From NCBI RefSeq assembly GCF_000091665.1, contig NC_000909.1:1026629-1058628 (forward strand): a stretch of 32,000 nucleotides of DNA. The letters run 5' to 3'. The translations under genes and the position numbers were made by a program. The notes under the pieces were generated by a model. It had not been told where the DNA came from. It saw only the letters and a list, made by a program, of their open reading frames with translations, and did no database searches. Below, piece by piece: positions 25,945 to 28,280 of this stretch. This DNA is from Methanocaldococcus jannaschii DSM 2661 (GTDB taxonomy: Archaea > AGJL01 > Methanococci > Methanococcales > Methanocaldococcaceae). Each line of letters opens with the position of its first letter. Positions within the stretch are counted from its first letter, which is position 1.

Positions 25945-27256
25945 GGCTATTCAACTCAATAATCTTTCCGTTTCTTGGATTTACATACTTCGGAATAGAG
26001 ATATTCTGTAAATTCCCATTAACAATGTCTTTAAATAAATCGATTATGTGAGAATATTCTCTCTCTGTATAGGCAAATAACTTACAATCCCTAATAAAAA
26101 CTTTACCATACTTCTTTAAAAACCTCTCTGCCCTCTCCTTCTCAAATACCGGAGGCCCTTCTCTCAAAGCAATTTTTGGTAGTTCATACACTAAAAATTC
26201 CCAATACAGATAGCAATAGTTATCATCTGCAAAACACTTGCTATTCAAAATTACAAATTCATTTTTAACAATAACTTTATTTATACTTTTTTGAAGCTTC
26301 TCCATCTGTGGATAGATGATGTCATCAACAACATTCTCCCTTGGGATTTTTAATATTAATCTATATCCATGCTCTCTATTTTCCAAAATCTCCTCTAACT
26401 TTTTAGCATAGTCCTTAAAGAACTCAATAGAAGGATTTTTTAAAAATTGTCTTGAGTAGAATATGAATCTGCAGAAGTTATCTTTGCTTAACGGAGAGGC
26501 TACATTTCTATTTAAATCTACTGGGTCATAGACAATAAACGGTTCATCAAACTTTTTTAGCTTATTAATATCAACATCTTTATAAATTTCAAATATGTCT
26601 TTTAAAATTATCTTCTTCCCAATTCTCCAATTTTGAGCCTCTTTTAATAGATTTATGAATGAACCATAGTGTAGAATCAACAACTCACATAAATAGCCAG
26701 AGAATCCTTTAGTTTTTACGTCAGAACCATATAATCCCAAACTCTTTAAAAATGCCTTTAACAACCTAACTTCATCACAAAGCCTTTCATTCAACCTACT
26801 AATTAAAAATTTATGATGCAATGGAGTTCTATCAACTGCAGATATTATTTTTTCTCCAAAGTCTATCTTATAGCATGGGACTATATCAACTTCATAACCA
26901 TCAACTTCACCATTAACATAGGGATGAGAGGCATAGTTTATGTTATAAGAGCCGTTTAACCTCTTTATTGCCTCTGTTCCTATTTTTAATCCAATCTCTT
27001 CTAATTCATCTTCAGAAACTGATTTGTCAAACAATACAAAAATATCAATATCATAGTCATCCTTTAAATTTGTGTTTCTTGCTGAAGAGCCAACCAATAA
27101 AACCTCTAAGATTGGATAGCTATTCTCTCTGACTATTTCCCAAATTTTATCAATGATTTCATTAGCTTTAAGTTGCAGTTTTTCCATATCTTCCTTTGAA
27201 GGCTTTATTTCATTTAAAACTTCTTTTAATATCTCCTCTATTGTCAAAACAATCAC
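25907..27256 (-). CDS. cca: CCA-adding tRNA nucleotidyltransferase (archaeal class I)
   Basis: Nucleotidyltransferase motif LLVGSSARNTNLKDDYDIDIFV, with archaeal CCA enzyme length and architecture. The start as drawn is a GTG (27254-27256). Confidence 0.9.
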   Translation of the reverse strand: MIVLTIEEILKEVLNEIKPSKEDMEKLQLKANEIIDKIWEIVRENSYPILEVLLVGSSARNTNLKDDYDIDIFVLFDKSVSEDELEEIGLKIGTEAIKRLNGSYNINYASHPYVNGEVDGYEVDIVPCYKIDFGEKIISAVDRTPLHHKFLISRLNERLCDEVRLLKAFLKSLGLYGSDVKTKGFSGYLCELLILHYGSFINLLKEAQNWRIGKKIILKDIFEIYKDVDINKLKKFDEPFIVYDPVDLNRNVASPLSKDNFCRFIFYSRQFLKNPSIEFFKDYAKKLEEILENREHGYRLILKIPRENVVDDIIYPQMEKLQKSINKVIVKNEFVILNSKCFADDNYCYLYWEFLVYELPKIALREGPPVFEKERAERFLKKYGKVFIRDCKLFAYTEREYSHIIDLFKDIVNGNLQNISIPKYVNPRNGKIIELNSHGEHKQFNKECQ

Positions 27257-27257
27257 C

Positions 27258-27359
27258 GAACTAAAACTTATTGTTATTAATAATGGACATTAATTAGGGC
27301 TGAAAGCCCTAACTTAATGGACGGGAGGTATCCCAATAGGAGGTTTCCTCCTATGGTTT
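27258..27359 (+). mobile_element. GC-rich hairpin element, copy E4 (core 27283-27356)
   Basis: ATGGACATTAATT-[AGGGC TGAAA GCCCT]-AACTTAATGGACGGGAGGTATC-[CCAATAGGAGG TTT CCTCCTATGG]. It is flanked by the 14-bp direct repeat TCAAAACAATCACC (27244-27257 / 27360-27373), or 17 bp with 1 mismatch. Confidence 0.8.
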
Positions 27360-27374
27360 TCAAAACAATCACCA

Positions 27375-28280
27375 TCATGCTATTAATGATATTAAAATCC
27401 CAACTATACCAAAGAATATCCCAATTATCCATAAAACTGTAACTAAGTGAGGCTCTCTCATTGGTTTATACTTCAATATAAGCCTTGGTAGGGATAGATA
27501 GCCACCTATATAGTATAGCTTCCCATCTTCTTTGAGAGTTGTTGGTTTATGCTCATCCCTACTCATAACCCCAGCACTTAGATATTTTAAAGAGGCATCT
27601 ATCACATAAGGCATCATTATAACTAAAAATGGGATATATTCCTTATAAACTACTGCTAAGACAGCTAAGAAAGCTCCAATTGGTAGAGTTCCAACATCTC
27701 CTGGAAAAACCTTTGCTGGATATTTGTTAAATATCAATAGCCCTAAATAGGATGCAGAGAATATCAAAGCGGATAAAAATCCAGTTGTATAATTATCTAA
27801 GAATAAAACCAAAGCTAATGAAATAGAAGCTATAACTCCCATTCCTATCTCCAATCCATTAAAACCAGCTAACATATTAGTTAAATTTGAGGAAATCATG
27901 ATTCCTAAAGCAATAATCAAAATTTCTATCAAATTAACATAAGAATTGTTATAAAACAAAATTCCTATTATCAAACCAGAAATAAATAACAATATTAATT
28001 TTTCTTTTGGTGAGAGCTTAGCTATATCATCAACAATTCCTATAATTCCAGCAGTAATTATTGGTAAAACAAAAATTGGATTTACAAATGGGATAAATAA
28101 AGCATTAGAAAACAATACTGCTAAGCCCCCCATCTCTGGAACTTTAATCTTCTCTTTTTTATGCAAATCATAGCCAAATTTATAATTAATCATCTTCTTC
28201 ATTAAAAATTTACACAATACTGCTGAAAATATAAAAGCAATTATTGTATATGTAAATAAGTTGATAAAATAATGCCCCAT
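27375..28280 (-). CDS. GT4-family polyprenyl-phosphate GlcNAc-1-phosphate transferase (MraY/WecA/GPT superfamily; AglH-like)
   Basis: Polytopic membrane protein with IVDDIAKL and NLTNMLAGFNGLEIG motifs, characteristic of this superfamily. Confidence 0.8.
   Translation of the reverse strand: MGHYFINLFTYTIIAFIFSAVLCKFLMKKMINYKFGYDLHKKEKIKVPEMGGLAVLFSNALFIPFVNPIFVLPIITAGIIGIVDDIAKLSPKEKLILLFISGLIIGILFYNNSYVNLIEILIIALGIMISSNLTNMLAGFNGLEIGMGVIASISLALVLFLDNYTTGFLSALIFSASYLGLLIFNKYPAKVFPGDVGTLPIGAFLAVLAVVYKEYIPFLVIMMPYVIDASLKYLSAGVMSRDEHKPTTLKEDGKLYYIGGYLSLPRLILKYKPMREPHLVTVLWIIGIFFGIVGILISLIA

What the first reader, a model, noticed from the sequence alone, without database searches (positions are those of the whole stretch)
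27241..27380. Element E4 splits a predicted ATGA-coupled gene junction and leaves cca with a GTG start
GGTGATTGTTTTGA (minus strand) occurs twice. One copy is at the present cca start (GTG ATT GTT TTG ACA = M I V L T, 27256 downward). The other lies right after the stop of the upstream GT4 transferase gene, within GCA TGA TGG TGA TTG TTT TGA A (27357-27380).

Deleting E4 plus one repeat gives ..GC ATG ATG GTG ATT GTT TTG ACA ATA GAG... In that reconstruction cca starts MMVIVLTIEE, with its ATG overlapping the transferase stop codon (ATGA). This is classic translational coupling.

In the present sequence those ATG codons instead open a 33-codon ORF that reads into the element (MMVIVLKTIGGNLLLGYLPSIKLGLSALINVHY*). 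cca is left with a GTG start, no obvious SD, and a stable hairpin element in its 5' leader.

This predicts altered or regulated expression of an essential tRNA-maturation enzyme.
Basis: partly seen in the sequence, partly recalled or inferred. Interest (0 to 1): 0.65.

Follow-up and report, generated by a model that had tools for sequence, protein, structure and literature searches.

The report
Repeat element duplicated cca's ribosome site
A small hairpin-forming repeat element did insert between a glycosyltransferase gene and the cca gene of a Methanocaldococcus jannaschii-type genome. It copied cca's own ribosome-binding site and start codon as it went in, so cca kept its original non-ATG start and no lost "ATGA-coupled" ATG start needs to be assumed.

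Summary
GGTGATTGTTTTGA occurs twice on the minus strand (27373-27360 and 27257-27244), flanking a 102-nt hairpin-rich insert. The 33-codon ORF and the in-frame ATGATG are as described.

- E4 is one copy of a dispersed, structure-conserved repeat family of Methanocaldococcus. It is probably one of the MJRE palindromic repeats described in 2005.
- The family's solitary copies are typically flanked by long duplications of the target, 14 to about 40 nt.
- Relatives without E4 have no ATGA junction. M. fervens reads TAA-CG-GTGATTATTTTG.
- The 14-mer is itself cca's ribosome-binding site. GGTGAT is this genome's standard Shine-Dalgarno motif, and TTG (27247-27245) follows after the usual 4-nt spacer.
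- The annotated GTG lies inside the Shine-Dalgarno motif. The M. lauensis group has ATG exactly where M. jannaschii has TTG.
- The insertion therefore preserved cca's ancestral signals. The left copy now heads a 28-codon ORF through the element.

An effect on cca expression is possible but untested.

The long, variable target duplications are the unusual part. A related observation is that the same element sits at CRISPR array ends in related genomes.

The parts
27375..28280 (-). GT4-family glycosyltransferase gene (Pfam PF00953). Its stop TGA is at 27377-27375, overlapped by an ATG at 27378-27376.
27360..27373 (-). Left copy of the duplicated target, GGTGATTGTTTTGA. It comprises SD (GGTGAT), a 4-nt spacer, TTG and A.
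27277..27363 (-). Short ORF created by the insertion: TTG 27363-27361 to TAA 27279-27277, 28 codons, followed by a second TAA. It is 33 codons if counted from ATG 27378. It reads through all three hairpins in the only open frame of the element.
27285..27356 (-). E4 core, CCATAGG...AATTAATGTCC, 72 nt. Hairpin 1 is at 27354-27336. A small hairpin at 27334-27323 is not conserved in the family. Hairpin 3 is at 27319-27288 and has the conserved TTTCA loop.
27258..27284 (-). 3' end of the element (ATTATTAA) plus a 19-nt tail, TAACAATAAGTTTTAGTTC. The tail resembles the native GT4 3' end/stop region of relatives, so it may be a degenerate part of a longer original duplication.
   Evidence: inference
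27244..27257 (-). Right copy of the duplicated target. SD GGTGAT is at 27257-27252, the annotated GTG at 27256-27254 and the likely true start TTG at 27247-27245.
25907..27247 (-). cca (archaeal class I CCA-adding enzyme), drawn from the TTG start. The longest ORF begins at GTG 27256.
24405..24479 (+). Second copy of the same element family in the window ('copy A'), lying between the convergent phosphoribosyltransferase and DUF530 genes.
24366..24404 (+). Left copy of the 35-39-nt target duplication of copy A. It holds the stop of the phosphoribosyltransferase gene (23856..24386).
24480..24519 (+). Right copy of the target duplication of copy A. It holds the last codons and the stop of the DUF530 gene (24484..25944, minus strand).
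16526..16606 (-). Divergent third member of the family (60 bits with model R1). It abuts the SD of the gene whose likely start, ATG 16616, lies inside ORF 16601..17086.

Best explanation
E4 is one copy of a dispersed family of repeat elements in Methanocaldococcus. Each copy has a core of about 70-80 nt and no coding capacity. The family is most likely one of the MJRE palindromic repeats of M. jannaschii.

The element has a sharply defined 5' end (CCATAGG) and two hairpins whose pairing is kept by compensatory changes. It has no terminal inverted repeats.

It entered the GT4-cca junction, where the two genes were only a few bases apart. A stretch of the target was duplicated in the process: 14 nt are still identical, and the original duplication was probably longer.

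The duplicated stretch is cca's translation initiation region. GGTGAT is the standard Shine-Dalgarno motif of this genome. It is followed by a 4-nt spacer and the start codon TTG. Because of the duplication:
- GT4 kept its stop codon.
- cca kept its original SD and its original non-ATG start, most likely TTG 27247, giving MTIEEIL... The annotated GTG lies inside the SD.
- The spare left copy of the SD and TTG now heads a 28-codon ORF. This ORF runs through the element in its only open frame and stops 19 nt before cca's SD.

The ATGATG next to the GT4 stop is specific to M. jannaschii. It is not a lost start.

Shown: the insertion, the duplication, the family, the conserved structure, the empty sites in relatives, and the SD/start geometry.

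Inferred: that TTG is the codon actually used; that the short ORF is translated and helps ribosomes through the hairpins; and how the element is inserted. My reading is staggered breaks 14 to about 40 nt apart that are filled in, made by an unknown factor acting in trans.
For: Family and structure:
- The window holds three copies.
- There are 38 distinct full-length copies across Methanocaldococcus genomes, MAGs and vent metagenomes.
- On 17 copies, 98.3% of cells are paired and 13 of 22 pairs carry changes on both sides. No shuffle out of 500 reaches this, and slid controls give at most 54.5% paired.
- No Rfam family matches.

Target duplication:
- E4 has 14 identical nt.
- Copy A has 35-39 nt, and single-copy empty sites exist in strain 28A and M. 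lauensis, where the two convergent genes overlap by 15-18 nt.
- The M. fervens orthologue of copy A has 39-40 nt.
- Other solitary copies have 19, 26, 23-29, 32, 36 and 39-40 nt.
- The null frequency of a score of 14 or more is 0.0016.

Start and SD:
- M. fervens has an empty GT4-cca junction, TAA-CG-GTGATTATTTTG.
- M. lauensis and L037 read GTGAT-TAGT-ATG.
- Of 25 GGTGA sites in the window, 12 are followed at 4-5 nt by the start of a long ORF, and one of those uses TTG.
- Residue 2 of the solved A. fulgidus CCA enzyme aligns with residue 5 of the GTG-start protein, so a TTG start makes the N-termini colinear.
- Most M. jannaschii 5' UTRs carry an RBS (PMC2699501).

Parallel case: in L028 the same element split another tight junction. 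A 36-nt perfect duplication holds the first 12 codons of the downstream gene, and a looser 54-58-nt extension takes in its RBS and ATG. It creates a 43-codon ORF through the element that ends inside the true gene's SD.

Accessibility: cca's SD is not strongly paired in the predicted fold of the whole leader.
Against: - No experimental N-terminus or transcript map was available, so GTG 27256 cannot be excluded as the start.
- The M. jannaschii lineage could have used its own ATGATG before the insertion. Those codons are in frame with cca in the reconstruction.
- M. fervens could have lost the element by recombination between the repeats instead of never having had it.
- Membership in MJRE1-3 could not be checked because the 2005 paper is not held.
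- The insertion mechanism is unknown. No transposase, terminal inverted repeats or autonomous partner were found.
- Many of the 38 copies lie at CRISPR array ends and may descend from one event. There are only about 9 independent solitary insertions.
Confidence: 0.8

Rival explanations
1. Before the insertion, cca began at the ATG that overlaps the GT4 stop (ATGA) and was translationally coupled to GT4. E4 cut it off from that start and left a weak GTG start without an SD.
For: Deleting the element plus one repeat gives ...GC ATG ATG GTG ATT GTT TTG ACA..., with both ATGs in frame with cca. The junction was certainly tight.
Against: - No relative has an ATG there or an ATGA overlap.
- GTG ATT (A/G)TT TTG is conserved in four species with and without inserts.
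- The GGTGAT-N4-start geometry is the genome's norm.
- An ATG occupies the TTG position in the M. lauensis group.
- Archaeal CCA enzymes start 1-3 residues before the IEEIL helix.
Confidence: 0.06
2. E4 is not, or is no longer, merely selfish DNA. It is a cis-acting RNA structure recruited to control cca. It might act as a processing or stabilising hairpin, a thermosensor, or a uORF-dependent attenuator between GT4 and cca.
For: - The hairpins are kept by compensatory changes and the loop TTTCA is conserved on one strand only.
- E4 lies in the sense orientation in the cca leader.
- The short ORF has a full SD and ends just before cca's SD.
- The same layout recurs in L028.
Against: - The same element occurs in unrelated contexts. 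These include antisense to a gene end (copy A), promoter regions, next to a tRNA gene and at CRISPR array ends.
- M. fervens does without it at this junction.
- Structure conservation is equally expected if the hairpins are needed for mobility.
- There are no expression data.
Confidence: 0.12
3. The element is inserted by CRISPR adaptation-type machinery (a Cas1-like integrase). The flanking duplications would then be the equivalent of repeat duplication, making each solitary copy a one-unit repeat-insert-repeat.
For: - At least 13 distinct copies sit between the last two repeats of CRISPR arrays, with 17-19 nt of the repeat duplicated when both repeats are of the same type.
- Solitary copies have a repeat-insert-repeat layout with duplications of tens of nt.
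Against: - Duplication length varies from 14 to about 40 nt (perfect or near-perfect stretches) and is not the 30-31 nt of the repeats.
- The array copies are at the trailer end, not the leader end.
- The insert is about twice spacer length and has a constant sequence.
- The array copies may all descend from one event spread by array duplication.
- The two arrays in the window lack the element.
Confidence: 0.07
4. The 14-nt repeat is a chance match or a local slippage duplication unrelated to the element.
For: AT-rich DNA gives many short repeats.
Against: The null frequency is 0.0016. Nine independent copies of the same element carry flanking duplications of their own, different targets. Empty sites carry one copy.
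Confidence: 0.01

Closest known systems
MJRE1-3, palindromic repetitive elements of Methanocaldococcus jannaschii (Suyama, Lathe & Bork, FEBS Lett 2005; the citation is confirmed in PMC2229807 and PMC2996958, the details are from my memory of the abstract)
   Same: Same organism. About 100-nt palindromic (hairpin-forming) repeats, multi-copy, mostly extragenic and low in identity between copies. Some can be read through as coding sequence.
   Different: I could not compare sequences with the published consensus because the paper is not held. To my knowledge the abstract mentions neither long flanking target duplications nor a position at CRISPR array ends.
Bacterial small palindromic mobile repeats (Correia/NEMIS, ERIC, RUP, Rickettsia RPE), as reviewed in PMC2229807
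   Same: Short non-coding hairpin repeats are found between genes and within them. They are co-transcribed with neighbours, can carry open frames fused to host ORFs, and can change mRNA structure.
   Different: Most of those have terminal inverted repeats and a fixed short duplication (often TA). E4-type elements have no inverted ends and have long, variable duplications.
Classical archaeal MITEs (for example the Sulfolobus elements; Redder et al. 2001 as cited in PMC2229807)
   Same: Non-autonomous, small, dispersed and flanked by a duplication of the target.
   Different: No terminal inverted repeats and no matching IS were found, and the duplication length is not fixed. A true inverted-repeat element does exist in the same genomes (window 19239-19346; strain 28A GT4-cca junction) and looks quite different.
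IS1634/IS1549-type insertion sequences that make long, variable direct repeats (from memory, not checked here)
   Same: Target duplications of tens of bp that vary from copy to copy.
   Different: Those are kb-sized DDE-transposase elements with inverted ends, in bacteria. No such partner was identified here.
CRISPR spacer integration and casposons
   Same: Integration with widely staggered attacks duplicates tens of bp (the repeat) or 14-15 bp (casposons). E4-type copies occur between CRISPR repeats.
   Different: The duplication length here is neither the repeat length nor constant. The insert has a constant sequence, and the array copies are at the trailer end.

Membership tests
MJRE palindromic repeats of M. 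jannaschii | Multi-copy in M. jannaschii and close relatives, mostly outside genes | tested here: met
   The window has 3 copies. There are 38 distinct full-length copies in Methanocaldococcus genomes and metagenomes. Assemblies break inside E4.
MJRE palindromic repeats of M. jannaschii | Palindromic, hairpin-forming, about 100 nt | tested here: met
   Folds. Covariation, 13 of 22 pairs with changes on both sides.
MJRE palindromic repeats of M. jannaschii | Sequence similarity to the published MJRE1, 2 or 3 consensus | not testable with these tools
   The paper is not held and no open paper gives the consensus.
Classical MITE | Terminal inverted repeats | tested here: not met
   The ends are CCATAGG... 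and ...AATTAATGTCCATT, which are not inverted copies of each other.
Classical MITE | Target site duplication of fixed, short length | tested here: not met
   The duplications are 14, 19, 26, 23-29, 32, 36, 38-39 and 39-40 nt.
Classical MITE | A related autonomous IS with the same ends | not tested
   No search for a protein-coding partner was made. The viral contig scan gave only a chance hit.
   M. fervens reads TAA CG GTG. M. lauensis and L037 have TAA followed by 7 or more nt.
SD-led initiation at a non-ATG codon | GGTGA(T) lies 4-5 nt upstream of the start codon, conserved in relatives | tested here: met
   (12 of 25 sites; cca at spacing 5 from GGTGA). Searches show conservation.
Known RNA families (Rfam 15) | A match to any covariance model at or near the gathering score | tested here: not met
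   No hit on E4 or copy A at the gathering threshold or at E-value up to 10.
CRISPR-type (Cas1) integration product | Duplication equal to repeat length, with integration at the leader-proximal repeat | tested here: not met
   The length is variable and the array copies are at the trailer end.

The most novel reading that the evidence does not exclude
E4-type elements may be a so far undescribed kind of non-autonomous archaeal mobile element. Their integration would copy 14 to about 40 bp or more of the target. That is far longer and more variable than for any archaeal MITE or IS.

This would let them land in zero-spacer or overlapping gene junctions of a compact genome without destroying either gene. 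A whole ribosome-binding site plus start, or a whole stop region, is duplicated. The spare copy becomes a short ORF that carries ribosomes through the hairpins.

The presence of the same element between the terminal repeats of many CRISPR arrays would then point to an integrase with widely staggered cuts, possibly related to adaptation or casposon enzymes.
Probability: 0.25. Interest if true: 0.7.

Novelty: new member of a known kind. Interest (0 to 1): 0.38.

Why it matters
For the finding as written, very little changes. An essential gene's start was probably mis-annotated by three codons (GTG instead of TTG), and no loss of translational coupling to an ATG needs to be invoked.

What could matter is the family behaviour that the finding led to. 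Insertions carry long, variable duplications that rebuild gene ends. This explains how a repeat family can colonise a genome with almost no intergenic space. It also creates short upstream ORFs in front of essential genes, and it gives a concrete, testable handle on an unknown integration mechanism in hyperthermophilic methanogens.

Tried and rejected
- Rfam at gathering and permissive thresholds gave nothing on the element. It is therefore not a catalogued RNA.
- An independent sRNA gene is unlikely. The sequences upstream of different copies share nothing, so no promoter travels with the element.
- Terminal inverted repeats are absent.
- The viral contig scan gave one chance hit with 13 bits.
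- Literature: the 2005 MJRE paper and the archaeal IS review are not held. Searches for MJRE, MITE or target site duplication together with Methanocaldococcus gave nothing useful.
- My first null model for flanking repeats was contaminated by CRISPR arrays. I repeated it with those regions masked.
- Extending the E4 duplication to about 40 nt is suggestive but not significant by score (17 versus 14). I report it only as an inference.
- The small middle hairpin (GGGA/UCCC) is present only in the M. jannaschii copies, so I left it out of the model.
- The Cas1-type integration idea fits the repeat-insert-repeat layout. It fails on duplication length and on the position in the array.
- The genome-contig scan returned no M. 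jannaschii, M. fervens or M. bathoardescens loci. A full census of the source genome was therefore not possible.
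Full report
**Source and genes**

The cca protein of the window is carried on a 1,664,970-bp contig, a complete-chromosome-sized record. The closest named orthologues are from Methanocaldococcus species. 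From memory, that length is the M. jannaschii DSM 2661 chromosome.

On the minus strand the order is Asn-synthase-like, BtpA, two small membrane ORFs, GT4 glycosyltransferase (27375..28280), cca (25907..27256 as the longest ORF) and DUF530 (24484..25944). A phosphoribosyltransferase gene (23856..24386) converges on the plus strand.

**Observation**

- The 14-mer GGTGATTGTTTTGA lies at 27373-27360 and at 27257-27244.
- An ATG overlaps the GT4 stop.
- The 33-codon ORF reads into the insert.
- The insert is stably folded.
- A flanking repeat this good is rare. Its frequency is 0.0016 in 5102 random placements, and the top-listed cases lie at another repeat element.

**What E4 is**

A second copy lies at 24405-24479 on the plus strand. 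It is about 81% identical over 67 nt, and the differences in the stems are compensatory. A third, divergent copy is at 16526-16606.

An exact-pattern scan of one genome per species found 22 further sites, all in Methanocaldococcus or Methanocaldococcaceae. It also found 4 sites in non-archaeal records, at least one of which (L023) is M. jannaschii sequence by contamination. A metagenome scan gave 77 more loci. After removing duplicates there are 38 distinct full-length copies.

A covariance model built on eight copies recovers 17 strong copies. On these, 98.3% of cells pair and 13 of 22 pairs show changes on both sides. No shuffle out of 500 reaches this, and slid controls give at most 54.5% paired.
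- In hairpin 3 the inner three pairs flip between GGG/CCC, CCC/GGG and CTC/GAG.
- The loop TTTCA and the flanks ATTAAGTT / AATTAATG stay fixed on one strand.
- This points to recognition of a single strand, either RNA or single-stranded DNA.

The element has no inverted ends and no Rfam match.

Short-read assemblies break inside E4. Four of six contigs carrying this cca begin 51 nt upstream of it.

This matches the palindromic repeat families MJRE1-3 reported for M. jannaschii in 2005. The citation is confirmed. The paper itself is not held, so membership is likely but not verified.

**Flanking duplications are a family trait**

Copy A is bracketed by a 35-nt repeat that is 94% identical, or 38-39 nt with one indel.
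- The left copy contains the stop of the phosphoribosyltransferase gene.
- The right copy contains the last codons and the stop of DUF530.
- In strain 28A and M. lauensis the site is empty. There the two genes overlap tail to tail by 15-18 nt and carry a single copy of that sequence.
- M. fervens has the element at the same place with a 39-40-nt repeat.

Other solitary copies carry repeats of their own targets. The lengths are 19, 26, 23-29, 32 (the 3' end of a tRNA gene), 36 perfect and 39-40 nt.

The left repeat nearly always abuts CCATAGG directly. The right repeat starts 0-10 nt after ...GTCC in short forms, or about 68 nt later in a long form that carries an extra module.

So the 14-mer at E4 is the best-kept part of a target duplication. 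Three weak hints suggest it was once longer:
- ATTAATAGCA and ATTAATAACA lie just upstream of the two copies.
- The right copy keeps a ghost 'stop + 3 nt + GGTGAT' that mirrors the native junctions.
- The same tail is present in M. bathoardescens.

**The junction in relatives**

| Genome | GT4-cca junction |
|---|---|
| M. fervens | No element: ...ATA ATT TAA CG GTG ATT ATT TTG ATA GAA |
| M. bathoardescens | The 3' half of an E4-type element and the same tail before GTGATTATTTTG; the upstream part is rearranged |
| Strain 28A | A different element with inverted ends in the same junction, again followed by GGTGATTATTTTG |
| M. lauensis and a related MAG (L037) | TAA, 16 nt, then GTGAT-TAGT-ATG |

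None of these has ATGA or an upstream in-frame ATG next to the stop. The GT4 stop of M. jannaschii aligns without gaps with that of M. fervens.

**Which codon starts cca**

- In the window, 12 of the 25 GGTGA sites on both strands are followed at 4-5 nt by the start of an ORF of at least 60 codons. One of them uses TTG.
- cca fits this rule with TTG 27247-27245. The annotated GTG 27256 lies inside the SD.
- In L037 the called start ATG sits at the same distance from GTGAT.
- Residue 2 of the solved A. fulgidus enzyme aligns with residue 5 of the GTG-start protein. MTIEEIL... is therefore colinear with MKVEEIL....
- RBS use is common in this organism (PMC2699501).

I put about 0.7 on TTG as the start. 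With either codon, the non-ATG start and its SD predate the insertion.

**Consequence**

The duplicated 14-mer is SD + spacer + TTG + A.
- The right copy serves cca.
- The left copy heads a 28-codon ORF (27363..27277). It crosses all three hairpins in the only open frame and ends with TAA TAA 19 nt before cca's SD.
- The predicted fold of the whole leader leaves cca's SD largely unpaired.

The same layout occurs independently in L028.
- The element split a junction of 11 nt.
- It carries a 36-nt perfect repeat that holds the first 12 codons of a cytidylyltransferase gene. A looser 54-58-nt extension of the repeat takes in the RBS and the ATG.
- The spare copy opens a 43-codon ORF through the element that stops inside the true gene's SD.

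Whether these ORFs are translated, and whether cca output changed, is inference only.

**Mechanism**

- Shown: insertion with a duplication of variable length, a precise 5' end, and structure under selection.
- Inferred: integration at breaks staggered by 14 to about 40 nt followed by fill-in, carried out by an unknown factor. No partner gene was found.
- Insertions are seen at gene ends probably because only those that rebuild both neighbours survive in this compact genome.

**Link to CRISPR**

In related MAGs and metagenomes, at least 13 distinct copies sit between the last two repeats at the trailer end of CRISPR arrays.
- The terminal repeat lacks its last 4 nt and abuts CCATAGG.
- When both repeats are of the same type, 17-19 nt are duplicated.
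- These copies may descend from one old insertion spread by array duplication.
- The two arrays in the window lack it.

A Cas1-type mechanism fits the layout but not the duplication lengths or the position in the array.

**Verdict**

The finding itself is ordinary: a known kind of repeat inserted at a gene junction, plus a likely start-codon mis-annotation. The long, variable, gene-end-rebuilding duplications of this family deserve a proper genome-wide census.

Noticed in passing
window 24366-24519: A second copy of the element lies between convergent genes. Its 35-39-nt duplication rebuilt the overlapping 3' ends of the phosphoribosyltransferase and DUF530 genes. Strain 28A and M. lauensis have the empty site with a 15-18-nt tail-to-tail overlap.
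   Followed up: yes
L012 1400-1600; L056, L057, L061, L109, L110, L049 and others: In related Methanocaldococcus MAGs and metagenomes the same element sits between the last two repeats at the trailer end of at least 13 CRISPR arrays. The terminal repeat lacks its last 4 nt and abuts CCATAGG.
   Followed up: partly
L028 5617-5800: An independent parallel of E4. The element split an 11-nt gene junction with a 36-nt perfect duplication of the first 12 codons (54-58 nt loosely, taking in the RBS and ATG). The spare copy opens a 43-codon ORF through the element that ends in the true gene's SD.
   Followed up: yes
window 19207-19400; L009 about 3828-3915: A member of the same superfamily with a different 3' hairpin is interrupted by an element of about 108 nt with inverted ends (CACAGGACTTTCACAG...CTGTGAAAGTCCTGTG, 19239-19346). 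The same kind of inverted-repeat element occupies the GT4-cca junction of strain 28A, so that junction is a repeated insertion target.
   Followed up: partly
L008 3830-3945; L013; L024: Several E4-type copies are split at the same internal point, CCATT^AAGTT (a TTAA site), by an insert of about 100 nt. In L008 the insert visibly has inverted ends (TAACCAATTATCAAAG...). The inserts in L013 and L024 were not inspected.
   Followed up: no
L008 6771-6851 and 3909-3981 versus window copies: At both orthologous sites M. bathoardescens carries a variant with a different 5' module. The M. fervens copy at the copy-A site has the stems of M. jannaschii E4, not those of copy A. This suggests conversion between copies or repeated re-insertion at the same sites.
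   Followed up: no
window 8192-9125 and 22745-23618; leaders 7781-8080 and 22340-22639: The window has two CRISPR arrays. Each mixes two repeat types (GTTAAAATCAGACCTCTTGGAGGATGGAAAT and ATTAAAATCAGACCGTTTCGGAATGGAAAC) and each is preceded by a leader of about 300 nt; the two leaders are 87% identical.
   Followed up: partly
window 5170-5249 and 13784-13863: Another 80-nt repeat (81% identical) is centred on a 27-nt palindrome, TGAACGTCTTCTATAAGAAGGCGTTCA. It is unrelated in sequence to E4.
   Followed up: no
window 16526-16620: The divergent family member ends 2 nt from the SD (GGTGA, 16606) of the gene whose likely start is ATG 16616. The longest-ORF start at 16601 lies inside the element and is probably not the real start.
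   Followed up: partly
L023 (JYOD01000249.1, 'Burkholderiaceae bacterium 16', 510 bp): This contig reproduces the M. jannaschii GT4-E4 sequence (left flank and element core identical to the window), so it looks like contamination of a bacterial assembly.
   Followed up: partly
L086 about 200-560: A long-form copy next to a tRNA gene is flanked by a 32-nt duplication of the tRNA 3' end plus its T-run.
   Followed up: no
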